From Thermodesulfobacteriota bacterium (lineage in GTDB: Bacteria > Desulfobacterota_D > UBA1144 > Nemesobacterales > UBA2774): a DNA stretch of 64,000 nt. Each line of letters opens with the position of its first letter. Position 1 is the first letter of the stretch. This document shows positions 46,970 to 64,000 of the stretch, one piece after another. The notes beneath the pieces are model-generated. The model was not told where the DNA came from. It was given only the letters and a program-made list of their open reading frames with translations, and did no database searches. The stretch is from NCBI GenBank assembly GCA_035325995.1, contig DAOKYU010000009.1:21286-85285 (forward strand). Direction: 5' to 3'. The translations under genes and the position numbers were made by a program.

Positions 46970-46981
46970 GGAGGCACGGCC

Positions 46982-47239
46982 ATGATCGTTCGACGCAAAG
47001 GCGGCCTGACCGAGTTCATCCCCACGCCGCAGGAGAAGCGCGACGGCCTGATCCGCGACAACGCCCTGGGCCTGCTGGAGAATCTGCACCAGCGCCTGGC
47101 GCGGCTGGAACGGGCGTCAAAGCTTCCGGCCACCGAAGCGGAGGCCTTCACGGCGCTGCTGGCGCGGATGCGGGCCGACGAGTCGCGCAACCTCGAGCTG
47201 CACGCCAGTCTGATCACCGGCGAAACTGCTTCCGGCTGA
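46982..47239 (+). CDS. small protein (possible fiber assembly factor)
   Basis: AAGGAGG RBS, last gene before terminator. Confidence 0.35.
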   Translation: MIVRRKGGLTEFIPTPQEKRDGLIRDNALGLLENLHQRLARLERASKLPATEAEAFTALLARMRADESRNLELHASLITGETASG

Positions 47240-47263
47240 CCGGCTCACTGCCACCGCCACCCC

Positions 47264-47301
47264 AGAAACCCCGGATACGGCCAGCCCGTTCCGGGGTTTC
47301 T
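47264..47301 (+). terminator. stem-loop terminator ending the phage late region
   Basis: AGAAACCCCGG...CCGGGGTTTCT 11-bp stem, followed by AT-richer intergenic region. Confidence 0.45.
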
Positions 47302-47488
47302 GCCGTCTTTGCTTCGCCCAATCCGGACAAACTCGCAAATCATTGAAAATAAACGTGTTAAATGTCGGCTTCGGCTGTTCTTCTACTTGATTTGTGTCCG
47401 GAAAGAAGCATTCATTCATGGTGTAAGCAGAGGCTGAAAAGCCTTGCCAGACAACGACTTAGAAGCGCCATGAACGACGGAGGCACGC

Positions 47489-48448
47489 ATGAACCTGAAA
47501 GAGATCCACTACGGGATCGAGATCGAGACCGTAAAACGCACCCGGGAACAGATCGCCTGGGCCATCCACTCGGTAGTGGGCGGCACGGTCCGCCATGTCG
47601 GCATCCCCAGCAGCTATGACCCCTGGGAGGTCGAGGACCTGCGCGGCCGCGTCTGGAAGGTGGTGGGGGACGCTTCCCTGACCAGCGTCCCGGCCCATCT
47701 GCGGGCCGAGGTGGTCAGCCCGGTGCTCGGCTACGACGACATCCCTCAACTGCAGGAGGTGGTCCGGGCCATCCGCCGCGCCGGAGGCAAGATCAACAGC
47801 CAGTGCGGCATTCACATCCATATCGACGCCGCGCCCTTCGACGGCAGACACCTGGGTAACCTGGCCAAGATCATCTACAAGCAGGAGCCGCTGATCCTTC
47901 ACGCCCTCGGCATCAGCCGCGACAGGCTCAATCGCTACACCCGGCCGGTCAGCGACGAACTGATCCAGCGTATCGAACAGCATCGCCCCCGCACCAAGGA
48001 CCAGCTCAACCGCATCTGGTACGGCTACCACAACCGCCAGCCCCAGCACTACGACAACAGCCGCTACCACGGGGTCAACCTGCACAACGTCTGGTACCGG
48101 GGCACGGTGGAGTTCCGCTGGTTCGAGGCGACCCTCCATGCGGGACGGATCAAGGCTTACCTGCAATTCTGCCTCGCCGTCGCCGCCAAGGCGCTCAATG
48201 GTCGGGCAGCCTCCAGCCGCAAGCGGGACTTCGATCCTCAGAGCGCCAAGTACGACTTCCGGGTCTTCTTGCTCCACCTCGGCCTGATCGGCGACGAGTT
48301 CAAGACCGCCCGCAAGCATCTGATGACCAACATGCCGGGTGACGCCGCCTTCAAGAACGGACGGCCCAAACCGGAGGACGTCCTTCCGGACGAAACGACC
48401 ACCAATCTCACCAACGAGGCCGGGCAAGTTCCCGGCCTCACTGTTTAA
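47489..48448 (+). CDS. amidoligase (Amidoligase_2 / glutamine-synthetase-like fold)
   Basis: N-terminal YGIEIE (GxExE) motif, GIHIHID, and size ~320 aa. Confidence 0.6.
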
Positions 48449-48459
48449 GGAGGTGCCCC

Positions 48460-48981
48460 ATGAAGATTCTGATCCGCTCCACCACGCTGGACGGCGAACC
48501 GATTCCCGGCAGTGGGGAAACCATCCAGGCCGCCGACTGCCTCGAAGTTGTCGAGCTGATGCGCGGCCAGACGCCGTTTACCGCCAGCCGAGCGCCCCGG
48601 GACTACATGACCGAAGTGCTTTCCGGCATCGAAGGCGGGCCGCCCCAGCCATTGCCGGAGGAAGTAGCCGCTGCGGCCGCCGAGTTTCTCACCCGTCTGG
48701 CGCGGCACGGCCTGATCGAATTCCTGCCCGACGACAAGGCCAGCGATCCCTGGCCGGAACGCTTCCTCGAAGCTCTGGAAACGGTGCGGCTCTCCGGGCG
48801 CACCAACATGCTCGACCACCCGGAGGTGACCCGGCTGACCGCCGATATGGGCTACCCGGAGGTGGCCGAGTGGCTGGCGGACCACCGGCGCGAATACGCG
48901 GCCTTCGTCCTCGAAGGGACGAGACCGCTCGGTAAGAACTTCGGCGGCAAGGAGGACCCGGCTCCATGTGCGGACAAGTAG
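48460..48981 (+). CDS. hypothetical protein of the amidoligase operon
   Basis: Sandwiched and overlapping (16 nt) with the GATase gene. Confidence 0.4.
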   Translation: MKILIRSTTLDGEPIPGSGETIQAADCLEVVELMRGQTPFTASRAPRDYMTEVLSGIEGGPPQPLPEEVAAAAAEFLTRLARHGLIEFLPDDKASDPWPERFLEALETVRLSGRTNMLDHPEVTRLTADMGYPEVAEWLADHRREYAAFVLEGTRPLGKNFGGKEDPAPCADK

Positions 48982-49763
48982 GCATCATCTTCGGCCGCAA
49001 GCGCAGACGGCCCGACGAGCGGGATTACCTGCGCGAGCTCTTCATCCGCATGCTGCTGCACAGCGAGGAGCGCGGACCGCACGCCTCCGGTCTGGCCTGG
49101 CTCAAGACTGACGGCAGCCACCGCATCTTCAAACGGCCGATGCGGGCGCACGAGCTGGTCTACGAGAAGCCGTTCCAGGAGCTGCTCGGACAGGTCGACA
49201 ACGAGACTACCATCCTCATGGGGCACACCCGCTGGCGCACCCGGGGCAACGAGTTCAACAACCGCAACAACCATCCCATCCGGGCCGGGATCGTCATCGG
49301 CACCCACAACGGCACCATCTACAACGCCGATTATCTGTTCCGCCGTCTCGGGCTGCCGCGCTACGCCGAGGTGGACAGCGAGCTGATCTTCCGTCTGGCC
49401 GACCGCTTCGCGCCCGAAGGCCCCATCGACCAGGAGGGCCTGAAGAAGGCGCTTGCCCTCTGTCGCGGTCAGATGAGCGCCGTGCTGGCCTCACGGCTCG
49501 ACCCCGGCACCATCACCGTACTCAAGGGCAACAAGCCACTCTGCCTGCGCATCCACCGCCAACACCGGGTGGTGCTCTACGCCTCGGACGACGCCTTCAT
49601 CGACTTCGCCGTGGACTTTGATCCGGGCTGGCGCGAGCTGGAGGTGCCGCCCATGACCATGCTCACCATCCGCCACGAGGATGTGCGGGCCATCGACAAC
49701 AGCGAATTCCGCTTCATACCCCAGGAGCGCAAAGGGACACTGCCCGAAGGAGTGAATGCATGA
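48966..49763 (+). CDS. class-II (Ntn) glutamine amidotransferase-like protein
   Basis: N-terminal MCGQVGI (Cys2 nucleophile), Ntn-hydrolase-like layout. Confidence 0.65.
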   Translation: MCGQVGIIFGRKRRRPDERDYLRELFIRMLLHSEERGPHASGLAWLKTDGSHRIFKRPMRAHELVYEKPFQELLGQVDNETTILMGHTRWRTRGNEFNNRNNHPIRAGIVIGTHNGTIYNADYLFRRLGLPRYAEVDSELIFRLADRFAPEGPIDQEGLKKALALCRGQMSAVLASRLDPGTITVLKGNKPLCLRIHRQHRVVLYASDDAFIDFAVDFDPGWRELEVPPMTMLTIRHEDVRAIDNSEFRFIPQERKGTLPEGVNA

Positions 49764-50299
49764 ACATTGGAGACAGCGTAAAGCTGAACACAAACCCGGA
49801 AGACAGTCCCGAGACCATCCTCCGACTCTTCGTCTACGGCACCCTGAAACGGGGCTACTGGAACCATCAACGCTTCTGCGCCCAGGCCCGCAGCATCGAA
49901 CCGGCCGTGGTCTGGGGCAGACTCTATCATCTCCACGCCGGATTCCCGGCCCTCGAGGTGCCCGAAGGTCTGATCCTGGCCAGGGGCACCGCCGATCCAC
50001 TGGCCGACGCCCGCAGGCAGCAGGAGATCGACACGCCACGCTTCGGCCGCCCGACTGGGGACTGGGATCTGATCCATGGGGAACTGGTGACCTTCACCGA
50101 TCCGCAGCGCGACCTGCCGCCCATCGACCTGCTGGAAGGCTTCCGACCCGGCGGGCACAGCATGTACCAGCGGGTGATGGTGGCTTCGCTACAAGGCACA
50201 ACCGCATGTGCGGTATGGGTTTACATCATGTGTGCGCCTCAAAACGGCCACCGGGTCACCAACGACAATCAGGCCGTTTTTTGGAAAAGTCGGCACTAA
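49760..50299 (+). CDS. gamma-glutamyl cyclotransferase (GGCT/AIG2-like)
   Basis: FVYGTLKRGYWNH motif. ATGA-coupled to the GATase gene. Confidence 0.7.
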   Translation: MNIGDSVKLNTNPEDSPETILRLFVYGTLKRGYWNHQRFCAQARSIEPAVVWGRLYHLHAGFPALEVPEGLILARGTADPLADARRQQEIDTPRFGRPTGDWDLIHGELVTFTDPQRDLPPIDLLEGFRPGGHSMYQRVMVASLQGTTACAVWVYIMCAPQNGHRVTNDNQAVFWKSRH

Positions 50300-50436
50300 T
50301 CGGCACAAAACGCTTGATTTTGGTAATCCGCCAATGTAATTTGTGGAGGTTAATTTGCGGCACTGTGTCCGGATTTCGGGTTTCCCGGAGACCTTCGGGC
50401 TTTTACCGAAAACATGATGAACGAAGGACGAAGGCT

Positions 50437-50640
50437 ATGGATGAGAGATGGCTGACGGTCGATGACATTTGCAAATATCTGAATGTAAGCAACGAGACGG
50501 TCTACAAGTGGATCGAACAACGGGCTATGCCCGGTCATCGCGTCGGCCGTCGCTGGATGTTCAAACAAGACGAAGTGGACGAATGGGTCCGCTCCGGCGG
50601 TGCGGCTGACAAATCCGATAAGCCGGACACCGAGCAGTAA
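50437..50640 (+). CDS. excisionase/AlpA-family HTH DNA-binding protein
   Basis: 67 aa, LTVDDICKYLNVSNETVYKWIEQRAMPGHRVGRRWMF. Direct repeats (G/T)TAATTTG(T/C)GG upstream. Confidence 0.6.
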   Translation: MDERWLTVDDICKYLNVSNETVYKWIEQRAMPGHRVGRRWMFKQDEVDEWVRSGGAADKSDKPDTEQ

Positions 50641-50649
50641 GGAGCGACC

Positions 50650-54899
<4,250 letters not shown>

Positions 54900-54946
54900 A
54901 TGGGTCACGGGTCGCGAGTCATGAGTCACGAGTCGAAGGATTGAAG

Positions 54947-55321
54947 ATGGCAAGGATTGAAAAGTTCGAGGATATCGAAGCATGGCAGCGGGCAAGACAG
55001 CTCGCCAAAGCCGTGTATGCCGTTACATCGGAAGGAAAGTTCGCTCGTGATTTCGGACTGCGTGACCAGATTCAAAGAGCAGCCGTTTCGGTGATGTCCA
55101 ACATTGCCGAAGGATTTGAGCGTGGTGGTGATGTTGAATTCCGGCGATTCCTTGCCATCGCAAAAGGCTCTGCCGGTGAAGTCAAAGCGCAGCTTTATGT
55201 GGCTCTCGATGCCGGGCTGATTGACCAGACTGCTTTCGACTCGCTTTACAAATCAGCCACAGAAACAGGAAACCTCATTGGCGGTTTCATGAAATATCTG
55301 AGCAAAGGGATTAACAAATGA
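54947..55321 (+). CDS. four-helix-bundle protein (23S rRNA-intervening-sequence protein family)
   Basis: FEDIEAWQRARQLAKAVY...SNIAEGFERG...AKGSAGEV family hallmarks. Confidence 0.6.
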   Translation: MARIEKFEDIEAWQRARQLAKAVYAVTSEGKFARDFGLRDQIQRAAVSVMSNIAEGFERGGDVEFRRFLAIAKGSAGEVKAQLYVALDAGLIDQTAFDSLYKSATETGNLIGGFMKYLSKGINK

Positions 55322-58164
55322 GCAGACATCAAGACCAGCCAACGCTGTTTCCGACAGAAGGACCCGCGACCCGCGACTCGGGACCCGTGACCTGCTTAGG
55401 CATGACATTCGAGAACGACGAAACCCGCCGCGCCCACTTTACCGAGGAGCTGCGTAAGAAGCTGCAGGACCCGGAGTTCCGCAAGATCGAAGGCTTTCCC
55501 ATCGGCAGCGATGAGGACATCCTGAACCTGAGCGATCCGCCGTATTACACCGCCTGTCCGAATCCGTGGATCGCCGACTTCATCACCGAGTGGGAGGCGC
55601 AGAAGCCGGAACAGCCCGAAGGCAATCACTACCACCGTGAGCCTTTTGCGACCGACGTGAGCGAAGGAAAAACCGATCCAATTTATCAGGCACATGCATA
55701 TCACACAAAGGTGCCTCATAAAGCCATCATGCGTTACATCCTCCACTACACCCAACCAGGAGATATCGTTTTTGATGGCTTTGCTGGAACTGGTATGGCT
55801 GGCGTTGCTGCTCAACTTTGTTCAGATAAAAATGCAGTAGCAAGCCTGGGATACAGAATTGGTGCTGATGGCATCGTGTTTAAAACAGAGGAAGATGAAA
55901 ACGGGAAACAAATTAGCTCGCCATTCTCAAAGATAGGGCTTCGTTATAGCATCTTGAACGATTTATCTACAGTTGCAGCATTTGTTGCCTCAAATTACAC
56001 GATCCCTTTCGACACAGGAATCTTCAAAAAAGAATCTTCCAGTCTCCTGAAAACACTGCGGAAAAGAATAGGCTGGATGTACGAAACCCTCCATAGTGAT
56101 GGGAAGACCAAAGGCATAATTAACTTTACTGTATGGAGCGAGGTTTTTGCGTGTCATCAATGTGGTTCTGACATCGTTTTTGTGGATGAAGCATTTGACC
56201 ATGATGAAAAGAAGGTCAGAGATGTTTTTCCATGTCCCTCTTGCGCGGCTGAGTGCTCAAAAAACAGTCTGCAGCTACTCTACGAATCTGTTTTTGATGC
56301 TGCCTTAAATGAAACTATTCAAGCGCCTAAGCGAGTACCTGTCTTAATAAACTACAGCATTGGAAAAAACAAATACGACAAAAAACCAGATAGCTTGGAC
56401 CTGGAGATTATTGCGAAGATTAACTCCATCGACCGACATCCAAACGTCCCAACAATGGAACTCCCACCGATGCAGATGACTCGTGTGGGAAGAATGCAAC
56501 CAGCGAAAATTACACATATCCACCATTTCTTTAACAAAAGAGCCTCGCATGCTTTGGGCGAAATGTGGAAAATTGCGTTAGAGTCACCTACGCATCGAAT
56601 GAAAAACATGATGCTGTTTTTTGTCGAGCAAGCAATATGGACTGCATCTGTCTTAAATAGATATCGTCCGTCTGGATACTCACAAGTCAATCAGTATCTA
56701 GCTGGAGTTTTTTATGTCCCATCTCAAAACGCAGAACCAAGTCCTTGGTATGTACTGAACGGAAAATCGACTCGATTGCCGAAGGCTTTTACTGAATTTG
56801 AGCAGTCTCATTCAACTTTAATCAACAATGGGGATTGCGGCGCTTTGCCAGTGCCAGATGCATGCATTGATTACATCTTCACGGACCCACCTTTTGGCGA
56901 AAACATCTACTATTCAGACCTGAACATACTCATAGAGTCTTGGCATAAAGTTAAGACTAACGAAAAGCCTGAAGCTATTGTCGACCGAGTTCGAGGTAAG
57001 TCACTAATTGACTACCAGAAACTAATGACCGATTGCTTCAAGGAGTATTATCGAATCCTTAAACCTGGACGATGGATGACGGTTGAGTTTCACAACTCAA
57101 AAAATAGCGTCTGGAATACTATACAAGAAGCTTTGCAGCATGCAGGATTTGTTGTTGCTGATGTAAGGACCCTTGATAAAAAACAAGGTTCTTTTCAGCA
57201 GGTAAGCAGCGCAAGCGCCGTCAAACAGGATTTGGTCATTTCTGCATATAAGCCAAATGGTGGTCTTGAAAATCGATTTAAGAGCGAAGCTGGCACAGAA
57301 AGTGGTGTATGGGATTTTGTTCGGACACACTTAAAGCAACTTCCAGTTTTTTCCTACAAAGGCGGAAGAGCGGAAGCAATTGTTGAACGTCAAAATTACC
57401 TCTTGTTTGACCGAATGGTCGCCTTTCACGTCCAACGAGGTGTACCTGTCCCAATCTCTTCTTCTGAGTTTTACCTTGGGCTTGCGCAGCGATTTGCTGA
57501 GCGTGATGGAATGTTCTTCCTCGCAGACCAGGTTGCTGAATATGATAGAAAGCGGATGCTGTGCAAAGAACTGATTCAAATCTCGCTGTTCGTATCTGAT
57601 GAAGCATCTGCAATACAGTGGCTACGAAACTCTCTAAAAAGCAAGCCGCAGACATTCCAGGAACTACACCCCCTGTTTATGCGCGAAATTAATGGTTGGA
57701 ACAAAAACGAGCAACCGTTGGAATTATCGCTTTTACTCGAACAAAACTTTCTGCGCTACGACGGCAAAGGCCCCGTGCCCGAGCAGATCCACGCCTACCT
57801 CTCCACCAACTGGAAAGAGCTGCGTAACCTGCCGAAGGATGATCCGACCCTGGTCGCCAAGGCTCGTGACCGTTGGTACGTGCCCGACCCCAACAAGGCG
57901 GGCGACCTGGAGAAGCTGCGCGAGAAGGCGCTGCTCAAGGAGTTCGAGGAATACAAAGAGGTCAAGAAGAAGCTCAAGGTCTTCCGCCTGGAAGCTGTCC
58001 GCGCCGGATTCAAGAAAGCCTGGCAGGAACGCGACTACGCCGTCATCGTCGCCGTGGCCGACAAAATTCCCAACAACGTCCTGGAAGAAGATCCCAAGCT
58101 GCTCATGTGGTACGACCAGGCGGTAACAAGAATGGGCGATGGTAATGAAGGGAGGCTGTTATGA
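55318..58164 (+). CDS. N6-adenine DNA methyltransferase with internal Zn-ribbon (COG1743-like); mosaic GC composition
   Basis: FDGFAGTGMAG (motif I), CHQCGSD...CPSCAAEC Zn ribbon, FTDPPFGENIYYSD (motif IV). Core 55.67-57.74 kb is AT-rich, both ends GC-rich. Confidence 0.7.
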   Translation: MSRHQDQPTLFPTEGPATRDSGPVTCLGMTFENDETRRAHFTEELRKKLQDPEFRKIEGFPIGSDEDILNLSDPPYYTACPNPWIADFITEWEAQKPEQPEGNHYHREPFATDVSEGKTDPIYQAHAYHTKVPHKAIMRYILHYTQPGDIVFDGFAGTGMAGVAAQLCSDKNAVASLGYRIGADGIVFKTEEDENGKQISSPFSKIGLRYSILNDLSTVAAFVASNYTIPFDTGIFKKESSSLLKTLRKRIGWMYETLHSDGKTKGIINFTVWSEVFACHQCGSDIVFVDEAFDHDEKKVRDVFPCPSCAAECSKNSLQLLYESVFDAALNETIQAPKRVPVLINYSIGKNKYDKKPDSLDLEIIAKINSIDRHPNVPTMELPPMQMTRVGRMQPAKITHIHHFFNKRASHALGEMWKIALESPTHRMKNMMLFFVEQAIWTASVLNRYRPSGYSQVNQYLAGVFYVPSQNAEPSPWYVLNGKSTRLPKAFTEFEQSHSTLINNGDCGALPVPDACIDYIFTDPPFGENIYYSDLNILIESWHKVKTNEKPEAIVDRVRGKSLIDYQKLMTDCFKEYYRILKPGRWMTVEFHNSKNSVWNTIQEALQHAGFVVADVRTLDKKQGSFQQVSSASAVKQDLVISAYKPNGGLENRFKSEAGTESGVWDFVRTHLKQLPVFSYKGGRAEAIVERQNYLLFDRMVAFHVQRGVPVPISSSEFYLGLAQRFAERDGMFFLADQVAEYDRKRMLCKELIQISLFVSDEASAIQWLRNSLKSKPQTFQELHPLFMREINGWNKNEQPLELSLLLEQNFLRYDGKGPVPEQIHAYLSTNWKELRNLPKDDPTLVAKARDRWYVPDPNKAGDLEKLREKALLKEFEEYKEVKKKLKVFRLEAVRAGFKKAWQERDYAVIVAVADKIPNNVLEEDPKLLMWYDQAVTRMGDGNEGRLL

Positions 58165-59240
58165 AAAAAGGCCGCGATATACCTATTAAGATCAGGCGGA
58201 TAACAATACGCAATTACAAGGGAATCGACGAGCTTGAGATGGATTTCCCGACGCCCAGAATGCCCGACGATCCGGATATTCTTGTCATGGGCAGCAGAAA
58301 CGGCTTGGGCAAGACGTCGATTATTGAATGCTGCTCATTGTTGTTGCTCGCGCTCACTTTGAGGGAAGAGCGATTCAAGCTGCGGGACCGGTACTCGATT
58401 GTCGACGTTCCTGACTTGCTCATTAAGGCTGGGTCTCATTTTGCCGAGATTGGCGGCGACATCGTTATTGGTGATGAATCAATAGCCGTTCAAATCAGGA
58501 TAGATCGCCACGGAGTCGTGAAAATATCCGGCGAATCGCTCCGCGAAAAGGTGCTCGAGAACGAGCTGTTCGACCCCGAAAGCGAAACAGACGATTTCAT
58601 CAAGGCGATTTGTGGGTTCACGCCAAATCCCGTTGTAGAAAATACATTTCTGTTGTTCCACAGCTATCGGAAGGTTCAAGAAGGAAATCCGGAGCTTGGG
58701 ATGATGGTTGATCGAGGACGATCACCGAGACGCCCGCCGTTCCCGCGCTATGAATTTCCGATGAGCGCCTTCAAGTTAAGGATACTGCGTTCCCTGATGG
58801 GCAAGGCCAACCTGTTCGAGTTTGTGGAGGACCAGGAGCCAGACGAGACCATCGAAAAACTCAACGAGCTTGTGCGGTTTTATGCGGGTGGCACGATCAG
58901 CAAGCTACGGCCTTCGTCGGACAATACCGTTGATTTCCGAGTTAAGCCTATAAATGGAGATGAGTCTTTTACTTTTGATGGCTTGAGTTCCGGCCAGAAG
59001 GAGATTATCTCCACGCTTTTCCTTATTTGGTATCACACCAAAAACAACCCCTCTGTGGTGTTCATCGACGAACCAGAGCTTCATCTTAATGCACAATGGC
59101 ATCGCAGCTTCGTTAAAAATCTCGTGAGCCTGGCACCGCAAAACCAGTACGTCATGGCGACTCATTCCGAAGATGTTATGGATTCGGTCGGTGAGGATCG
59201 CCGCGTTCTCCTTCTGAACAACCAGGAGGGGGATAAATGA
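58161..59240 (+). CDS. AAA_15/21 ABC-type ATPase (AriA-like)
   Basis: Walker A GSRNGLGKTS, D/H-loop VVFIDEPELHLN...MATHSEDV. Low-GC gene. Confidence 0.55.
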   Translation: MKKGRDIPIKIRRITIRNYKGIDELEMDFPTPRMPDDPDILVMGSRNGLGKTSIIECCSLLLLALTLREERFKLRDRYSIVDVPDLLIKAGSHFAEIGGDIVIGDESIAVQIRIDRHGVVKISGESLREKVLENELFDPESETDDFIKAICGFTPNPVVENTFLLFHSYRKVQEGNPELGMMVDRGRSPRRPPFPRYEFPMSAFKLRILRSLMGKANLFEFVEDQEPDETIEKLNELVRFYAGGTISKLRPSSDNTVDFRVKPINGDESFTFDGLSSGQKEIISTLFLIWYHTKNNPSVVFIDEPELHLNAQWHRSFVKNLVSLAPQNQYVMATHSEDVMDSVGEDRRVLLLNNQEGDK

Positions 59241-60130
59241 TCAGCGTAAAAACAGGCATTCGTGCGGAAGAGGTTCGGCTCCAAAGTCAGCATGTGCTTT
59301 TTGTCGAAGGAAAGGACAGGAACTCGGTCGATCCTAATGTTTTGGGTGAACTGTTTGACCGGAGCATAAAAATTGAGACTCTTGGACCATCGTTTTCCGT
59401 AAGAAGTGTTGCGGAAGCTCTCTTCAGCTACCACCCAACCTACTATTTTTTGATCGACCGAGATCATCACGATAATGACTTCATAGATCGTTGCTGGGGA
59501 AACTTTCCTGACCCCGCAACACACAATCTCTTGGTTTGGCGTCGTCGTGAGATTGAGAACTACTTCTTGGAGCCGGAGTACCTGTTCCAATCGAAGTTTT
59601 GTCGTGTCAGCCAGGACGAGTTGGAACGGAAGGTTCTGCAGTGCGCCAATGAGCGATTATTTCTCGATGCGGCTAACCATGTAGTGACGTCAATTCGTGA
59701 AGAGCTCAAGCGGAACTGGATTCAGAAGTTCTCCAACCCTGCAGAATTTTCAAGTAGGGAAACAGCCCTGCAGAGGCTGAAAAGCGCCAATGAATTCGAT
59801 CAGCATCGCACGAATGTGGATCAAAAAGTCTCTGCCGATGAGGTGGAACGTCGTTTCCACGAATACCTTGGAATCATGACGGGCGGGCAAGAGCAACTCG
59901 CTTTCGGGGTTGGCGATTGGCTTCATATGGTCCAGGGCAAGAAGGTTCTTGCTCAAGTCATCAATTCGGGCTGCTTTCAAGTGCAGGCAACTGATGGGAC
60001 GTCCGTTACGGGTCGAGAGAAAATCAATGAAGTCGTAAAGGATCTACTTCAAAAAGATCCCAGCATACAACCCGCCGACTTTGTTGCCCTGAAGCAGCTC
60101 ATCGACACAAGAATCAATGGAGCGAGCTGA
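59237..60130 (+). CDS. TOPRIM (DUF4435-like) nuclease partner (AriB-like)
   Basis: VLFVEGKD, YFLIDRD (DxD), REIENYFLEPEYL motifs. ATGA-coupled to the ATPase gene. Confidence 0.5.
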   Translation: MISVKTGIRAEEVRLQSQHVLFVEGKDRNSVDPNVLGELFDRSIKIETLGPSFSVRSVAEALFSYHPTYYFLIDRDHHDNDFIDRCWGNFPDPATHNLLVWRRREIENYFLEPEYLFQSKFCRVSQDELERKVLQCANERLFLDAANHVVTSIREELKRNWIQKFSNPAEFSSRETALQRLKSANEFDQHRTNVDQKVSADEVERRFHEYLGIMTGGQEQLAFGVGDWLHMVQGKKVLAQVINSGCFQVQATDGTSVTGREKINEVVKDLLQKDPSIQPADFVALKQLIDTRINGAS

Positions 60131-60227
60131 CTATGAGGCGCGTTACATTCAAAACCTCACCAATAATCGACATAAACTTGTCCGACATGGGTGCTTGTAA
60201 TTGCTTAGCGTGGATTGGAGGGGAATA

Positions 60228-62063
60228 ATGTTTCTCAGGGAAGTCATTCTAAAAAATTTTCGAGGATACAAAAACGAACACCGAATCCCCATCGACCAGC
60301 TAACAGCGTTTATCGGGAAAAATGATGCTGGGAAGTCCTCCATCTTTGATGCTTTGGCCGTCTTTTTTGATCATCCATTGGGAAAAATCGACGCTTCAGA
60401 TATCTGTGTTCACGCCGGGGCCAACGGCGAATTAAGAATCGGCTGCGTTTTTTCGGATTTTCCTGATTCGATCACAATTGACGCATCTTCGGTCACAACG
60501 CTTGCAGACGAATATCTGCTGAATGTCGGTGGTGCGCTTGAGATCCATAAAGTCTACGAATTTTCGGACGGAACGCTAAAGAAGCCAAAAGTATTTGCAA
60601 TTGCCAACCATCCAACGGCAAATGGCTTCGATGGCTTGTTATCAAAAAAGAACGCTGAATTGAAAAAAGCGGGCGAAGCCGCGAATATCGATGCCGGAGT
60701 CGATAAACGTTCTAATGCAGCCCTTAGAAGGGCCATTTGGGGAAGTGCAGACGATTTGAAATTGGGCCATTCCGAAATCCAACTGGATAAGGAAGATGCC
60801 AAAGCCATCTGGGAACAGCTCTCCAAATACCTGCCCGAATACGCCCTTTTCCGAGCAGACCGCCCGTCAACAGACGAAGACTCAGAAGTCCAGGACCCAC
60901 TAAAGGTCGCCATAAAACAGGCAATCGAAGAAGTACAAGCTGAACTGGACGCGGTGAAGGAAAAGGTTAAAGCACGCACGCTTGATGTGGCCAATCGTAC
61001 CATCACGAAGCTTGCTGATTTTGATAGTACGCTTTCATCGCAGCTCAACCCGAATTTCAAATCTGATCCAAAATGGGACGGCCTTTTCAAACTCTCTCTA
61101 ACTGGAGACGATGAAATACCAATCAATAAGAGGGGCAGCGGTGTCCGGAGATTGGTTCTATTCAGCTTTTTCCGCGCTGAAGCTGAACGGCTTCGAGAAG
61201 AGCATAAAAAAGGGAATATTATTTACGCAGTGGAAGAGCCGGAGACTGCGCAGCATCCAGACAACCAGCGAAAAGTAATCGAAGCATTGCAGGCTATCGC
61301 CGAGGCGGATGGCTGCCAAGTTATGCTTACCACGCACGTCCCGGCATTGGCGTCACTACTTCCAATCAATTCAATTCGATATGTATGTTCTCACGACCTA
61401 AATGGCAGAGATGTCTGTATCGCAGACGATGATGTAATCAAGACCGTTGTCGCTGACCTGGGAATCATACCTGACAAGCGCGCAAAGGTTTTGGTGTGTG
61501 TAGAAGGTCCGCATGACCTTCAATTTTTAAGACGGATCAGTAGCTTGCTCCGGGCGGAGGACGACTCCGTCATTGATATGTTTGTCGACCCAAGAGTCGC
61601 TCTGGTCGTCTTGGGTGGAAGCACTTTGAAGGAATGGGTAAATCAGCATTACTTGAAAAATGTAGGACTTCCAGAGGTCCACATTTACGACCGTGATGAG
61701 CTGAAAAATGGGAAGTACAAATATCAGGACGATAAAGATGCGGTAAACGCAAGAGGTGACGGATCTATTGGGTTCCTGACCGCAAAGCGGGAGATGGAGA
61801 ATTACCTCCACATTGATGCAATTAGTGAAGCGTTGCAGCCTGTTGTTGGCTTCAACTTCACTTTTGCGCTTTCAGACGACTGCGATGTTGAAACCGAGAT
61901 AAAAACACTGCTGAACGGTCAAGGAAAGATTCAGAGGCGTTCGATTAAACATTGGCTTAACGAAGACGCGGCAAGTCGAATGAACATAGATCGCTTGAAA
62001 GAGCGAAACGGCTATGACGAGATCAAAGGTTGGTTTACCGAGATCGCAAATAGGGTCGTTTGA
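60228..62063 (+). CDS. class-1 OLD-family ATP-dependent endonuclease (ABC ATPase + TOPRIM)
   Basis: Walker A GKNDAGKSSIFDAL. C-terminal TOPRIM VLVCVEGPHDLQFL ... REMENYLH. Low-GC. Confidence 0.7.
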   Translation: MFLREVILKNFRGYKNEHRIPIDQLTAFIGKNDAGKSSIFDALAVFFDHPLGKIDASDICVHAGANGELRIGCVFSDFPDSITIDASSVTTLADEYLLNVGGALEIHKVYEFSDGTLKKPKVFAIANHPTANGFDGLLSKKNAELKKAGEAANIDAGVDKRSNAALRRAIWGSADDLKLGHSEIQLDKEDAKAIWEQLSKYLPEYALFRADRPSTDEDSEVQDPLKVAIKQAIEEVQAELDAVKEKVKARTLDVANRTITKLADFDSTLSSQLNPNFKSDPKWDGLFKLSLTGDDEIPINKRGSGVRRLVLFSFFRAEAERLREEHKKGNIIYAVEEPETAQHPDNQRKVIEALQAIAEADGCQVMLTTHVPALASLLPINSIRYVCSHDLNGRDVCIADDDVIKTVVADLGIIPDKRAKVLVCVEGPHDLQFLRRISSLLRAEDDSVIDMFVDPRVALVVLGGSTLKEWVNQHYLKNVGLPEVHIYDRDELKNGKYKYQDDKDAVNARGDGSIGFLTAKREMENYLHIDAISEALQPVVGFNFTFALSDDCDVETEIKTLLNGQGKIQRRSIKHWLNEDAASRMNIDRLKERNGYDEIKGWFTEIANRVV

Positions 62064-64000
62064 TGAATCAATCGCTTTGGCAATATAGCACCGTTCATAA
62101 CAGCGCCTGCAAGGTCATCGAGGAACAGATCTTGTGGGGGCAGACGGTGTGCCGTGTCTGGTTGCCGAACCAGGACGCGGTGGTGCGCGTGCCCCGCTCC
62201 GCTTTGCGGCCGCTGAGTGCCGACCTGCAGCCGGAGATCGAGGCCGGACGCATTGCCTATGTGGCCGCCGCAGCCAAGGTAGCCGAGGTGCTTGAAGGCT
62301 CCACCAGCGCCACCGACGGTCATGTGCTGCTGGCTCCCATGGAGTCCAACGTCATTCCGCTGCCGCACCAGATCCACGCCTTGTCCCGTGCCATCTCCGG
62401 CGACCGCGTGCGCTACCTGCTGGCCGACGAGGTGGGTCTCGGTAAGACCATCGAGGCCGGTCTGGTCATGCGCGAGCTAAAACTGCGCGGGCTGGTTCGG
62501 CGAATCCTGGTCGTCTCTCCCAAAGGTATCGCTACCCAGTGGGTTGCGGAAATGCAGACCCATTTCAACGAGCAGTTCCAGCTTGTGCTGGGCGACGACA
62601 TCGGCACCTTGCAGCGTCTGGCTCCAGGGGCTGACCAGCGGAACTCAGCCTGGTCGATGTTCGATCAGGTCATCGTTTCCCTGGATTCGGTCAAGCCCAT
62701 GGACAAGCGGCGCGGTTGGACCGCCGAGCGCGTTGCCGAATACAACCGCAGCCGGTTCGAGGATCTGATTACCGCCGGTTGGGATCTGGTGGTGGTGGAC
62801 GAAGCGCACCGCCTGGGCGGCAGCACCGATCAGGTCGCCCGCTACAAACTCGGCAAGGGCCTGGCGGAAGCCGCGCCCTATGTGCTGCTCCTTTCGGCGA
62901 CTCCCCACCAGGGGAAGACCGACGCCTTTCATCGCCTGATGAACCTGCTGGATGACGACGCCTTTCCGGATATGGACAGCGTCTCCCGTGAGCGGGTGGC
63001 CCCGTATGTCATCCGCACCGAAAAGCGCAAGGCCATCGATGCCGACGGCAAGCCGCTCTTCAAACCCCGGCGCACGCAGATGGCCCCGGTGGCCTGGGAG
63101 AGCCGTCATCACCTGCAGCAACTCCTCTACGAGGCAGTGACCGACTATGTGCGCGAGGGCTACAACCAGGCCCTGCGCGAGAAGAAGCGCCACATCGGCT
63201 TCCTGATGATCCTGATGCAGCGTCTGGTGGTCTCCAGCACCCGGGCGATCCGCACTACGCTGGAACGGCGACTTGCCGCACTCAAGGAAGGCGAACAGCA
63301 GGCCAGCCTGCGCCTGGCGGAGCTGGAAAACGGTACGGGGGGATCGGAAAGCCCAGACGATGAAATGGCCGAGCTCTACGACATGGACGGCCAGGAGCTG
63401 CTCGATGAGCTGCTGAAGTCTCATGTGTCGGCTCTGCAGAGCGAAGGCAGCCATGTAGAGACCCTGCTCGATGCGGCGGTTCGCTGTGAACAGGCTGGAC
63501 CGGACGCCAAGGCCGAGGCGTTGATCGAGTGGGTCTACGAGCTGCAAGCCGAGGAAAACGAGCCGGACCTGAAGGTGTTGATCTTCACCGAGTTCGTGCC
63601 CACCCAGCAGATGCTGAAGGAGTTTCTGGAAGCCCGGGGCATATCGGTCGTCACCCTGAACGGCTCCATGGATATGGAGGAACGCAAGCAGGCCCAGGAC
63701 GCCTTCCGCAAATCGCACCGCGTGCTGGTTTCCACCGACGCGGGCGGTGAGGGTCTGAACCTGCAGTTTGCCCATGTCATCATCAACTACGACATCCCCT
63801 GGAACCCGATGCGGCTGGAACAGCGAATCGGCCGTGTGGACCGTATCGGGCAGCCCAAGAAGGTGCGGGCAATCAATTTCGTGTTTGAGGATTCGGTCGA
63901 GTTCCGGGTCCGCGAAGTGCTGGAGCAGAAGCTCTCGGTGATCTTCGACGAGTTCGGTATCGACAAGACCGGCGACGTACTCGACTCCGCCCAAGCCGGT
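62063..64000 (+). CDS. SNF2-family helicase (3' end beyond window)
   Basis: LLADEVGLGKT (motif I), VVDEAHRL (DEAH), LLLSATP (III). Helicase-C region with INYDIPWNP...QRIGRVDRIGQ. Confidence 0.75.
   Translation, partial: MNQSLWQYSTVHNSACKVIEEQILWGQTVCRVWLPNQDAVVRVPRSALRPLSADLQPEIEAGRIAYVAAAAKVAEVLEGSTSATDGHVLLAPMESNVIPLPHQIHALSRAISGDRVRYLLADEVGLGKTIEAGLVMRELKLRGLVRRILVVSPKGIATQWVAEMQTHFNEQFQLVLGDDIGTLQRLAPGADQRNSAWSMFDQVIVSLDSVKPMDKRRGWTAERVAEYNRSRFEDLITAGWDLVVVDEAHRLGGSTDQVARYKLGKGLAEAAPYVLLLSATPHQGKTDAFHRLMNLLDDDAFPDMDSVSRERVAPYVIRTEKRKAIDADGKPLFKPRRTQMAPVAWESRHHLQQLLYEAVTDYVREGYNQALREKKRHIGFLMILMQRLVVSSTRAIRTTLERRLAALKEGEQQASLRLAELENGTGGSESPDDEMAELYDMDGQELLDELLKSHVSALQSEGSHVETLLDAAVRCEQAGPDAKAEALIEWVYELQAEENEPDLKVLIFTEFVPTQQMLKEFLEARGISVVTLNGSMDMEERKQAQDAFRKSHRVLVSTDAGGEGLNLQFAHVIINYDIPWNPMRLEQRIGRVDRIGQPKKVRAINFVFEDSVEFRVREVLEQKLSVIFDEFGIDKTGDVLDSAQAG

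What the first reader, a model, noticed from the sequence alone, without database searches (positions are those of the whole stretch)
55650..57760. Mosaic methyltransferase gene: ~2.1-kb low-GC core between GC-rich termini
The first ~350 bp and last ~420 bp of the MTase ORF have host-like GC. The central segment, which encodes motif I, the Zn ribbon, the target-recognition region and motif IV, is conspicuously AT-rich with different codon usage. This pattern is expected if a catalytic/TRD cassette from a low-GC donor recombined into conserved terminal docking segments. That would be specificity swapping within a defense system.
Basis: seen in the sequence. Interest (0 to 1): 0.6.

Follow-up and report, generated by a model that had tools for sequence, protein, structure and literature searches.

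The report
Recombinant BREX methyltransferase with swapped core
The DNA methyltransferase gene of a type 3 BREX phage-defence operon is a true recombinant: its ends belong to a highly conserved GC-rich operon found in many bacteria, while its 2.1-kb AT-rich middle, which holds the catalytic and DNA-recognition parts, comes from a different allele lineage and probably re-targets the system.

Summary
In the 948-codon PglXI gene (55318-58164), third-position GC is about 0.78 in codons 1-115 and 812-948 and 0.41 in between. Composition-only change points fall at 55663 and 57751.

The operon is BREX type 3 (BrxF, BrxC, PglXI, BrxHII). Its backbone recurs at 91-96% nucleotide identity in Thiobacillus, Thalassospiraceae, Burkholderiaceae, Desulfofustis and Acidimicrobiaceae assemblies, among others.

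Across these loci the PglXI termini stay 91-100% identical, but the cores are only 33-62% identical. At least 20-25 core types sit on one backbone. The window's core is closest to uniformly low-GC loci (L002 85%, L084 70%). A maximum chi-square test places the breakpoints at 55632-55764 and 57754-57763.

A 2.37-kb block is 98.9% identical to locus L001, while both flanks differ by about 13%. The two intergenic slots beside the gene carry unrelated defence cargo that assorts independently of the core.

Two caveats apply. Cores are AT-richer than their flanks in 83-100% of loci in every group of the family, so low GC is not simply the donor genome's GC. A change of specificity and a docking role for the termini are inferred, not tested.

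The nearest precedent is the hypervariable central region of Type III mod alleles. I found no description of this pattern for PglXI.

The parts
50437..50640 (+). Small excisionase-family / MAD1-like HTH gene just upstream of brxF; part of the conserved backbone
   Evidence: NCBIfam TIGR01764 at 68.5 bits and MADS1 at 78.7 bits against a cut-off of 80. Backbone homology to L051, L017 and L014 starts at 49949-50449.
50650..51165 (+). brxF (small ATPase), backbone
   Evidence: PADLOC BrxF at 221.6 bits. It is 91-99% aa identical in clade loci.
51162..54899 (+). brxC/pglY (DUF6079), backbone, GC3 0.85
   Evidence: Pfam DUF6079 at 1970 bits and PADLOC BrxC at 2167 bits. It is 91-96% nt identical to L010, L051, L017, L014 and L050, and the homology ends exactly at 54897.
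54898..55376 (+). Slot 1: a four-helix-bundle (23S_rRNA_IVP) gene cassette (ORF 54896-55321). It is bracketed by inverted arms 54903-54934 and 55361-55392 made of 7-nt tandem units, and it supplies the MTase start codon and first ~19 codons.
   Evidence: Pfam PF05635 at 121 bits and TIGR02436. The inverted repeat is 32 nt and 81% complementary. TRF finds period 7 on both arms. Clade loci without it have only a 9-88 bp gap. It is shared only with L029.
55318..58164 (+). pglXI (brxXI) N6-adenine DNA methyltransferase, 948 aa, intact
   Evidence: PADLOC PglXI at 1467 bits, covering model positions 5-918 of 919. Pfam PF01555 at 59.4 bits. More than 8000 homologues were found.
55377..55640 (+). PglXI N-terminal backbone segment (codons ~20-108), GC3 ~0.8
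   Evidence: It is 90-97% nt identical to clade loci up to about 55618. It is 85-99% aa identical across the clade.
55663..57750 (+). AT-rich replaced core (codons ~116-811). It contains motif I, the nested TRD with the 4-Cys Zn finger, motif IV (DPPF), the rest of the Rossmann fold, and the first two C-terminal helical domains.
   Evidence: GC3 is 0.41 and the change points are. Recombination breakpoints are 55632-55764 and 57754-57763. It is 99% identical to L001, 85% to L002 and 70% to L084, but 33-54% to other clade loci.
57760..58136 (+). PglXI C-terminal backbone segment (codons ~815-940, third helical domain), GC3 ~0.8
   Evidence: It is 83-100% nt (mostly at least 90%) and 96-100% aa identical across clade loci. 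Backbone homology ends at 58136-58149.
58137..62070 (+). Slot 2 cargo: an AriA-like ATPase (58161-59240), an AriB-like protein (59237-60130) and an OLD/AriA/GajA-like ATPase-nuclease (60201-62063). All are AT-rich.
   Evidence: PADLOC hits are. GC3 is 0.49-0.60. The same slot is 1064-3898 bp long and carries IetAS, Ppl plus a SIR2-like gene, PDC-S19, NsnB/HEC-03-like or PD-T7-3-like genes in other clade loci. The AriAB-like pair is shared only with L003, and the OLD-like gene only with L030 and L036.
62063..64000 (+). brxHII-type SNF2 helicase (5' part; it runs off the window), backbone
   Evidence: PADLOC BrxHI/BrxHII at 1225 bits. Homology to clade loci resumes at 62070-62076 at 89-95% nt.

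Best explanation
The gene is pglXI, the methyltransferase of a type 3 BREX operon, and it is a recombinant mosaic.

The operon backbone comprises the HTH gene, brxF, brxC, the first ~110 and last ~135 codons of pglXI, and brxHII onward. It is a GC-rich, highly conserved unit that has spread recently among distantly related bacteria.

Homologous recombination, with crossovers inside the conserved 5' and 3' coding blocks of pglXI, replaced the central ~2.1 kb. That segment holds the Rossmann catalytic domain, the nested zinc-finger TRD and two of the three C-terminal helical domains. The replacement is a diverged allele from an AT-rich pool of PglXI cores, whose nearest sampled relatives sit in uniformly low-GC BREX-3 loci. 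A second, more recent exchange moved nearly the same 2.37-kb block between two slightly diverged backbones (the window and L001).

Shown here: the compositional mosaic, the breakpoints, the decoupling of core from backbone, and the independent assortment of the core with the two flanking cargo slots.

Inferred:
- The new core changes the DNA motif that BREX methylates and uses to tell self from non-self. This rests on analogy with type 1 PglX, which is the specificity factor for both methylation and defence (PMC11341690).
- The conserved termini are kept because they fit the enzyme into the conserved BREX partners, and because they provide the homology for exchange.
For: 1. Composition: GC3 is 0.78 in the termini and 0.41 in the core, with change points at 55663 and 57751. 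The codon-adaptation index is 0.61 / 0.24 / 0.63.
2. System identity: BrxF, BrxC, PglXI and BrxHI/HII are matched by PADLOC. PglZ and a brxA-position gene are present in the syntenic locus L003.
3. Backbone: it is 91-96% nt identical in L010, L051, L017, L014, L029, L020 and L050. Homology breaks at 54897/55377 and at ~58140/62072.
4. Within pglXI: nt identity to clade loci is 90-97% up to ~55618, below 55% from 55798, 62-73% at 57718, and 92-97% from 57778.
5. Pairwise aa identity among clade loci: C-terminus 96-100%, N-terminus 85-99%, core 33-62%. The exceptions are shared-core pairs.
6. Core diversity: 49 proteins with clade-like termini carry 20-25 core clusters. Median core identity is 0.50, against 0.97 and 0.91 for the termini.
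7. Triplet maximum chi-square (window, a backbone relative, L002): breakpoints at 55632-55764 and 57754-57763, chi-square 255-294, permutation maximum about 25.
8. Nearest cores: L002 and L084 are uniformly low in GC3, and L084's BrxC is only 68% identical to the window's.
9. Window against L001: 26 mismatches in 2301 nt inside 55500-57800, against 60 in 459 nt outside (p = 7e-29).
10. Linkage: termini identity tracks BrxC identity (rho 0.79 and 0.85). Core identity does not (-0.36).
11. Replication: 38 clade-like loci from isolates, MAGs and metagenomes all show the mosaic. Right junctions cluster at aa 651-687 (23 loci) and aa 799-828 (10 loci). Left junctions fall at roughly aa 97-118, 141-167 and 180-194.
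12. Contrast: distant family members in high-GC genomes have near-uniform high GC3.
Against: - Cores are AT-richer than their flanks in 100% of clade, 97% of sister-group and 83-90% of distant loci, including operons that are low-GC throughout. Part of the compositional contrast therefore reflects a systematic property of the variable core, such as weaker constraint, the AT bias of frequently transferred DNA, or selection. It does not reflect donor genome GC alone.
- No backbone-clade locus with a GC-rich 'native' core was found, so the pre-replacement state is not observed.
- The direction of transfer is not resolved. The core may have moved into the backbone, or the backbone may have swept around a core.
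- No methylation motif is known for any of these alleles, so a change of specificity is untested.
- The AlphaFold model is only moderate (mean pLDDT 64), so the match between junctions and domain boundaries is approximate.
Confidence: 0.8

Rival explanations
1. There was no transfer. The core diverged in place, and its low GC reflects selection or AT-biased mutation in a fast-evolving, weakly constrained or recombination-poor region.
For: Core GC3 is below flank GC3 in 83-100% of loci in every group, even in low-GC operons. Core GC3 in the clade is almost independent of backbone GC3 (slope 0.10).
Against: Backbones differ by only 4-9% at the nucleotide level, yet their cores are 33-62% identical in protein and contain indels. 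The window's core is 85% identical to L002, whose termini are less similar to the window's than clade termini are. The identity transitions are sharp. The same core occurs on different backbones and different cores on the same backbone. This explanation may contribute to the AT-richness, but it cannot account for the sequence relationships.
Confidence: 0.06
2. Same mosaic, opposite direction. An AT-rich pglXI, together with its AT-rich neighbours, was the resident or ancestral state of the variable zone. The GC-rich backbone, including the pglXI ends, was laid over it by recombination or gene conversion from another BREX-3 copy.
For: The whole interval 54.9-62.1 kb is AT-rich apart from the two pglXI termini. 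The backbone is clearly mobile and nearly clonal across phyla. The backbone homology blocks end at sharp, shared positions.
Against: The window's surrounding sequence is GC-rich (0.63), like the backbone. Slot 1, the core and slot 2 assort independently among loci, which fits better with separate replacements of each module than with one AT-rich block overlaid in two short patches. The two scenarios give the same present-day structure and cannot be fully separated here.
Confidence: 0.12
3. Programmed variation: a shufflon or phase-variable cassette system, or a diversity-generating retroelement (the adjacent four-helix-bundle protein belongs to the same Pfam family as DGR Avd), diversifies the MTase in situ.
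For: The adjacent gene matches PF05635, and by my recollection the DGR accessory protein Avd belongs to this family. A 7-nt tandem tract lies in the first 25 codons of pglXI. Phase variation of pglX is known in type 1 BREX (PMC11341690).
Against: There is no second full or partial pglXI copy anywhere in the 64-kb window (tblastn). There are no template/variable repeat pairs or other long repeats in 54.5-62.4 kb. No recombinase or reverse-transcriptase gene is seen among the locus ORFs. The heptamer tracts are imperfect (79-84%) and form the arms of the slot-1 cassette. The variation spans 2.1 kb with indels, unlike DGR mutagenesis.
Confidence: 0.02
4. Assembly artefact: the window is a chimera of reads from a GC-rich and an AT-rich organism.
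For: None specific. Abrupt GC changes can be a symptom of chimeric assembly.
Against: The ORF is intact and in frame across both junctions. The same mosaic, at 97% nt identity, occurs in an independent assembly, L001. Analogous mosaics occur in 38 loci, including the isolate genome of Thiobacillus denitrificans DSM 12475.
Confidence: 0.01

Closest known systems
PglXI / BrxXI, the methyltransferase of type 3 BREX (defined by Goldfarb et al. 2015, from my own knowledge; architecture described in PMC12839542, NAR 2026)
   Same: There is a full-length match to the PADLOC PglXI model. The operon order is brxF-brxC-pglXI-brxHII. The protein has a short N-terminal prelude, a Rossmann N6-MTase domain with a large nested TRD carrying a 4-Cys zinc finger, and a helical C-terminal region of about 300 residues (PMC12839542 section 26).
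   Different: That paper notes TRD divergence in general terms. In the sections and term searches I read, it does not describe a near-clonal backbone carrying many unrelated cores, the compositional mosaic, or the recombination junctions. Here the exchanged unit is larger than the TRD.
Hypervariable central region of Type III R-M mod alleles in Haemophilus and Neisseria (Bayliss et al. 2006, PMC1557822)
   Same: Both are methyltransferase genes with conserved 5' and 3' parts and a hypervariable centre among otherwise conserved loci. In both cases this is interpreted as allelic exchange that alters the recognition sequence under phage pressure.
   Different: In mod the variable part is the TRD, between conserved catalytic motifs, within one or two genera, and coupled to a repeat-tract phase switch. 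Here the variable part includes both catalytic motifs plus C-terminal domains, the backbone spans several phyla, no phase-variation tract is evident, and the core is compositionally foreign.
Type I R-M hsdS target-recognition-domain shuffling and duplicated hsdS switching (e.g. PMC7394358)
   Same: Specificity is changed by recombination at conserved regions that flank variable recognition modules.
   Different: HsdS is a separate, non-catalytic subunit, and switching often uses local silent copies and a recombinase. No silent copy or recombinase is present here.
Type 1 BREX PglX as the specificity factor; TRD engineering and phase variation (Went et al. 2024, PMC11341690)
   Same: In type 1 BREX the MTase determines the motif for both methylation and defence. 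pglX, not the other BREX genes, is the variable component. This supports the inference that a new PglXI core re-targets the system.
   Different: It is a different MTase family, gamma-class and MmeI-like with a C-terminal TRD. Re-targeting there was by point mutations, and natural variation is by phase switching, not by whole-core replacement.
Accessory defence genes embedded inside BREX loci (PMC12839542 section 35; PARIS inside the Salmonella BREX island, PMC11341690)
   Same: Here AriA/AriB-like and OLD-like genes sit between pglXI and brxHII. Relatives carry IetAS, Ppl and PDC-S19 at the same position.
   Different: Here two precisely bounded slots flank the MTase and assort independently of its core, so three exchangeable modules are separated by two short conserved coding blocks.

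Membership tests
BREX type 3 | BrxF small ATPase | tested here: met
   PADLOC BrxF at 221.6 bits for 50650-51165.
BREX type 3 | BrxC/PglY large ATPase | tested here: met
   PADLOC BrxC at 2167 bits and Pfam DUF6079 at 1970 bits, both full length.
BREX type 3 | PglXI-type (PF01555) methyltransferase rather than the PglX of types 1 and 2 | tested here: met
   PADLOC PglXI at 1467 bits and Pfam PF01555 at 59.4 bits against a cut-off of 26.7.
BREX type 3 | BrxHII helicase | tested here: met
   The 645 residues inside the window score 1225 bits on the PADLOC BrxHI|BrxHII model. The gene is cut by the window end.
BREX type 3 | PglZ and BrxA | not testable with these tools
   Both would lie beyond the window end. 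In the syntenic locus L003 (backbone 91% nt identical), a PF08665 PglZ gene and a 257-aa gene follow the helicase.
PglXI/BrxXI methyltransferase | AdoMet-binding motif I and the catalytic DPPF/Y motif intact | tested here: met
   DGFAGTG is at aa 153-159 and DPPF at aa 523-526. Both are invariant in alignment A1.
PglXI/BrxXI methyltransferase | Large TRD insert with a 4-Cys zinc finger nested in the Rossmann fold | tested here: met
   C279, C282, C306 and C309 are invariant. A beta-rich insert spans about aa 186-450 between Rossmann elements in the model (moderate confidence). This matches the description in PMC12839542 section 26.
PglXI/BrxXI methyltransferase | Conserved helical (HTH-like) C-terminal region of ~280-300 residues | tested here: met
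   Helical domains are predicted from about aa 648 to 940. The last ~130 residues are 96-100% conserved in the clade.
PglXI/BrxXI methyltransferase | N6-adenine methylation of a specific non-palindromic BREX site | not testable with these tools
   This needs methylome data or biochemistry.
Mod-like 'hypervariable centre' specificity alleles (works-like comparison) | Conserved flanks and a hypervariable centre among loci with an otherwise conserved system | tested here: met
   Termini are 85-100% identical and cores 33-62% identical among loci with 94-99% identical BrxC.
Mod-like 'hypervariable centre' specificity alleles (works-like comparison) | Variable region confined to the TRD between the catalytic motifs | tested here: not met
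   The replaced block (codons ~116-811) includes motif I, motif IV and two C-terminal domains. In most clade loci it spans about aa 150-190 to 650-690 and still includes motif IV.
Mod-like 'hypervariable centre' specificity alleles (works-like comparison) | Different alleles recognise different sequences | not testable with these tools
   No motif data exist for these loci.
Shufflon / phase-variable specificity switching | Silent partial gene copies, inverted repeats and a recombinase, or a slippage-prone repeat tract | tested here: not met
   There is no second pglXI fragment in the window and no relevant repeats. Only imperfect 7-nt tracts are present, and they belong to the slot-1 cassette arms.

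The most novel reading that the evidence does not exclude
Type 3 BREX of this lineage is a near-clonal, broadly mobile chassis with three exchangeable modules: cargo slot 1, the PglXI catalytic/TRD core, and cargo slot 2. The modules are separated by two short conserved coding blocks, the PglXI termini. These blocks serve both as homology arms for exchange and as adaptors that plug any core into the conserved BrxC/BrxHII/PglZ machinery. Junctions recur at two or three domain boundaries, and cores are drawn from a family-wide, AT-rich allele pool. Nature has in effect mapped where PglXI can be cut and re-joined to re-target BREX.
Probability: 0.45. Interest if true: 0.7.

Novelty: new variant of a known kind. 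Interest (0 to 1): 0.55.

Why it matters
BREX is widespread, but type 3 is almost unstudied and how it recognises its target is unknown. These natural chimeras show which part of PglXI travels with the operon and which part is interchangeable. That points to the termini as the likely interface with the rest of the complex and to the core as the specificity module.

The recurrent junctions, at about aa 100-190 on the left and at aa 650-690 or 800-830 on the right, give direct designs for re-targeting experiments. Sets of loci with identical backbones and different cores are ready-made material for mapping motif to sequence by methylome sequencing.

The locus also illustrates how a defence system can keep a conserved engine while exchanging specificity and accessory effectors. 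Finally, it shows that compositional mosaicism inside a gene can be a reliable pointer to such exchange.

Tried and rejected
- Plasmid origin: megablast of brxF-brxC against PLSDB found no match.
- Phage-borne relatives: 16 IMG/VR contigs carry PglXI relatives, all at 57% identity or less and none with this backbone.
- Structure: the AlphaFold2 model from a 24-sequence alignment reached only mean pLDDT 64 and pTM 0.44. I used it only for approximate domain limits and ran no fold search.
- Solved structures: the only hit is a weak one to CcrM at motif I (E = 1e-4).
- Silent cassettes or a shufflon: none found.
- DGR idea, prompted by the Avd-like neighbour: there is no repeat pair, no reverse transcriptase gene among the locus ORFs, and the pattern of variation is wrong.
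- Phase-variation tract: only the imperfect heptamer arms of the slot-1 cassette are present.
- 'Termini are conserved family-wide, so they say nothing': rejected. In distant family members the termini are only 64-66% identical, barely above the core at 54%, and termini identity tracks BrxC identity.
- 'Low GC is simply the donor genome's GC': weakened.
- Literature: searches found no prior description of PglXI mosaicism. Two Antarctic population papers that matched the search terms were irrelevant. Goldfarb 2015 is not held, so statements about it rest on my own knowledge.
Full report
**1. The observation.**

In 300-nt windows, GC is 0.52-0.58 at its 5' end, 0.39-0.47 from about 55700 to 57650, and 0.56-0.59 at 57650-58100. 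The window average is about 0.63.

The signal sits at synonymous positions. GC3 is 0.70-0.85 in codons 1-100, 0.25-0.55 in codons ~110-790, and 0.75-0.85 in codons ~800-940. Termini against core give 188/240 versus 289/708 GC-ending codons (chi-square 99, p = 2e-23). A two-change-point fit on GC3 alone places the boundaries at codon 116 (55663) and codon 812 (57751).

A codon-adaptation index built from the window's own genes gives 0.61 / 0.24 / 0.63 for the three segments. The neighbouring brxC and helicase score 0.71 and 0.62. Motif I (DGFAGTG, aa 153-159), the four-cysteine cluster (C279, C282, C306, C309) and DPPF (aa 523-526) all lie in the AT-rich part.

One correction is needed. The upstream gene (54896-55321, GC3 0.49) and the three downstream genes (58161-62063, GC3 0.49-0.60) are also AT-rich. 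The two MTase termini are therefore GC-rich islands inside a ~7-kb AT-rich zone.

**2. What the locus is.**

PADLOC and Pfam identify BrxF (50650-51165), BrxC/DUF6079 (51162-54899), PglXI (55318-58164; 1467 bits, full model length) and a BrxHI/HII-type SNF2 helicase. The helicase starts at 62063 and runs off the window. This is a type 3 BREX operon. PglZ and a brxA-position gene follow the helicase in the syntenic locus L003.

Extra genes sit between the core BREX genes:
- A 23S_rRNA_IVP four-helix-bundle gene lies between brxC and pglXI.
- An AriA-like ATPase, an AriB-like protein and an OLD/AriA/GajA-like protein lie between pglXI and the helicase.

A recent survey describes PglXI (BrxXI) as a short N-terminal prelude, a Rossmann N6-MTase with a ~250-residue nested TRD carrying a 4-Cys zinc finger, and a ~280-300-residue C-terminal region of three HTH-like domains (PMC12839542, section 26). 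My moderate-quality model (mean pLDDT 64) is consistent with this description. It places the MTase domain end near aa 645 and helical domains from there to aa 940.

**3. Related loci.**

I collected related loci from three sources:
- a protein search followed by contig look-ups;
- a scan of species-representative genomes (80 loci);
- a metagenome scan seeded on the C-terminal 143 residues (80 loci).

Mapping every locus onto the window's proteins revealed a 'backbone clade'. In these loci BrxC and the helicase are 94-99% identical in protein and 91-96% identical in DNA to the window. The assemblies are attributed to very different taxa:
- Thiobacillus denitrificans DSM 12475 (L051);
- Thalassospiraceae (L010);
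- Porticoccaceae (L029);
- Sterolibacteriaceae (L017);
- Burkholderiaceae (L014);
- Competibacteraceae (L050);
- Sedimenticola (L020);
- Desulfofustis (L028);
- Acidimicrobiaceae (L005).

Backbone homology to the window stops exactly at the brxC stop (54897) and resumes at 55377, about codon 20 of pglXI. It stops again at 58136-58149 and resumes at 62070-62076, just inside the helicase.

**4. The mosaic.**

Nucleotide identity between the window's pglXI and clade loci changes sharply along the gene:
- 90-97% up to about 55618;
- 65-87% across the universally conserved motif-I region;
- below 55% from 55798;
- 62-73% at 57718;
- 92-97% from 57778.

Protein identity among clade loci differs strongly by segment:

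| Segment | Identity among clade loci |
|---|---|
| Residues 821-940 (C-terminus) | 96-100% |
| Residues 27-105 (N-terminus) | 85-99% |
| Residues 165-640 (core) | 33-62% |

A few pairs share a core despite these low values: window/L001 at 99%, L003/L005 at 91%, L010/L020 at 94%, and L028/L022 at 81%.

Among 205 family members, 49 have clade-like termini. These carry 20-25 distinct core clusters at 70-80% identity. Median pairwise core identity is 0.50, against 0.97 (C-terminus) and 0.91 (N-terminus).

The conservation of the termini is not a family-wide constraint. In distant members the termini are only 64-66% identical, against 54% for the core. Across 68 loci, terminus identity to the window tracks BrxC identity (Spearman 0.79 and 0.85), whereas core identity does not (-0.36). 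The termini are therefore inherited with the operon, and the core is not.

**5. Source and breakpoints of the window's core.**

Outside L001, the nearest cores are L002 (85% identical) and L084 (70%). L002 is a contig of GC 0.43 with a uniformly low-GC3 MTase. L084 has a BrxC only 68% identical to the window's with GC3 0.48, and a uniformly low-GC3 MTase (0.38). The termini of these two loci are less similar to the window's (77-87%) than clade termini are, which is phylogenetic incongruence.

A maximum chi-square analysis of the triplets window / clade relative / L002 puts the breakpoints at 55632-55764 and 57754-57763. Chi-square is 255-294, against a maximum of about 25 in 100 permutations. 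These positions coincide with the compositional change points.

**6. A second, recent exchange.**

L001 is an independent assembly that carries the same backbone. It lacks the four-helix-bundle gene and has different genes downstream of pglXI. Window and L001 differ at 26 of 2301 positions between 55500 and 57800. They differ at 60 of 459 positions in the rest of the aligned gene (p = 7e-29). The mismatches change density at about 55456 and 57825.

This near-identical block extends about 200 bp and 70 bp into the GC-rich termini. It was therefore exchanged between clade backbones by crossovers inside the conserved blocks.

**7. Generality and junctions.**

All 38 clade-like loci with a full gene show a low-GC3 centre (0.28-0.51) between high-GC3 ends (0.59-0.82).
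- Right junctions cluster at aa 651-687 (23 loci; the end of the MTase domain) and at aa 799-828 (10 loci, including the window; between the second and third C-terminal helical domains).
- Left junctions fall at about aa 97-118, 141-167 and 180-194, that is, before motif I, just after it, or at the start of the TRD insert.

Residues 681-800 exist in a 'native' GC-rich version shared at 88-98% by L003, L005, L010, L014, L017, L028 and L029. The window, L001 and L002 carry a different, AT-rich version. The window thus belongs to a minority 'long-core' class.

**8. The flanking slots.**

Slot 1 (brxC to pglXI) is 9-2926 bp in clade loci. Slot 2 (pglXI to helicase) is 1064-3898 bp. Both have GC 0.45-0.55.

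Slot 2 carries different cargo in different loci: IetA/IetS, a split Ppl plus a SIR2-like gene, PDC-S19, an NsnB/HEC-03-like ATPase, a PD-T7-3-like gene, or, in the window, the AriA/AriB-like pair plus an OLD-like gene.

Cargo and core assort independently:
- window and L001 share a core but neither slot;
- window and L003 share the AriAB-like pair but not the core;
- window and L029 share the slot-1 gene but neither the core nor slot 2;
- L010 and L020 share a core but not the slots.

The two conserved pglXI termini are thus the linkers between three exchangeable modules.

**9. Composition: a caveat.**

Core GC3 (aa 165-640) is lower than backbone GC3 in all three groups of loci:

| Group | Loci with core GC3 below backbone | Median difference |
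|---|---|---|
| Clade (34 loci) | 100% | -0.35 |
| Sister group (C-terminus 80-93% identical; 40 loci) | 97% | -0.18 |
| Distant members (48 loci) | 83% | -0.09 |

The deficit appears even in operons that are low-GC throughout. In the clade, core GC3 is essentially independent of backbone GC3 (slope 0.10), whereas in distant members it follows it (slope 0.79).

The large contrast in the window is therefore best read as transfer from an AT-rich pool. The nearest non-clade cores of most clade members come from operons with GC3 of about 0.5-0.57. Distant members in high-GC genomes have near-uniform high GC3.

There is also a systematic AT shift of the variable core that donor genome GC alone does not explain. 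It may reflect the general AT-richness of frequently transferred DNA, weaker constraint, or less recombination-associated GC bias. I could not separate these possibilities.

But those cores are not orthologous, so the inference 'selection rather than transfer' does not follow.

**10. Mechanism and its status.**

Shown here: the mosaic, its breakpoints, the decoupling of core from backbone, and recurrent independent exchange.

Inferred:
- (a) Exchange occurs by homologous recombination in the conserved 5' and 3' coding blocks.
- (b) A new core changes the BREX site. In type 1 BREX, PglX is the specificity factor for both methylation and defence, and it is the variable component (PMC11341690). 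The most divergent part of the core here is the TRD insert, at 17-55% identity.
- (c) The termini are retained because they fit the enzyme to the conserved partners.

The direction of transfer (core into backbone, or backbone around core) is not resolved.

**11. Comparison with what is known.**

The gene is a bona fide PglXI in a bona fide type 3 BREX operon. The evolutionary pattern most resembles the hypervariable central region of Type III mod alleles (PMC1557822) and TRD shuffling in Type I hsdS (PMC7394358). It differs in four ways:
- the exchanged unit includes the catalytic motifs and extra domains;
- the backbone is shared across phyla;
- no phase-variation device is present;
- the core is compositionally foreign.

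Defence genes embedded in BREX loci have been reported (PMC12839542 section 35; PMC11341690). I found no description of PglXI core replacement on a conserved backbone in the searchable literature.

**12. Verdict.**

This is a new variant of a known kind of process, specificity-module exchange in modification-dependent defence. It is of moderate interest, mainly because it gives type 3 BREX a testable modular map.

Noticed in passing
window 54896-55392 (arms 54903-54934 and 55361-55392); also L029:9533-10068, L056:28-560, L030:14480-14902, L007:10313-10767, L066:9616-10049: The four-helix-bundle (23S_rRNA_IVP / TIGR02436) gene in slot 1 is bracketed by a 32-nt imperfect inverted repeat whose arms are 7-nt tandem units (GTCACGA x4.4 and GACCCGC x4.6). 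Homologous genes at four other BREX-3 loci are bracketed by 27-61-nt inverted arms built from different heptamer-like repeats. This looks like a small mobile or IVS-like hairpin cassette. Its right arm is translated as PglXI residues ~15-25, so the cassette supplies the MTase start codon.
   Followed up: partly
window 58161-62063: Slot 2 holds a PARIS-like pair and a 620-aa OLD/AriA/GajA-like ATPase. The pair is an AriA-like 359-aa ATPase and a weakly AriB-like 297-aa protein with no Pfam hit. The pair recurs only in L003 (91-96% aa). The OLD-like gene recurs directly after pglXI in L030 and in Methanosarcina sp. T3 (L036), at 75-82% aa.
   Followed up: partly
window 9765-46969: Most of the window upstream of BREX is a myovirus-like prophage structural module. 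It includes a portal, a 1529-aa Mu-F-like protein, a 799-aa D12-class adenine MTase, a tail sheath, baseplate J, a P2-I-like tail protein and a 1182-aa DUF4815 protein. An Amidoligase_2 gene (47489-48448) and a GATase_6 gene (48966-49763) follow. L010 shares 44963-54897 at 95.6% nt, so the junction between the phage tail end and BREX is conserved there. BREX may be phage-borne or merely adjacent.
   Followed up: partly
window 50150-50640: A GC dip (0.51) precedes brxF. It contains a 67-aa excisionase-family / MAD1-like HTH gene (50437-50640) that belongs to the conserved backbone, and it may be the operon's regulator.
   Followed up: no
window 62063-62100: The first ~3-4 codons of the helicase and the last ~5-9 codons of pglXI vary with the slot-2 cargo. 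Backbone homology ends at 58136-58149 and resumes at 62070-62076. The cargo cassettes therefore bring their own translational-coupling junctions.
   Followed up: no
L060 (Acetomicrobium sp. UBA5826) and L156 (metagenome Ga0334883_1001131): Other polarities and extremes of the mosaic exist. In L060 the operon has GC3 0.43-0.44, but the MTase core and C-terminus reach 0.62-0.80. In L156 the backbone and termini have GC3 0.92-0.96 while the core has 0.59.
   Followed up: no
window 1303-2649: A 448-aa AAA_21 (AbiEii-type) ATPase lies near the start of the window and is possibly another defence or accessory gene.
   Followed up: no
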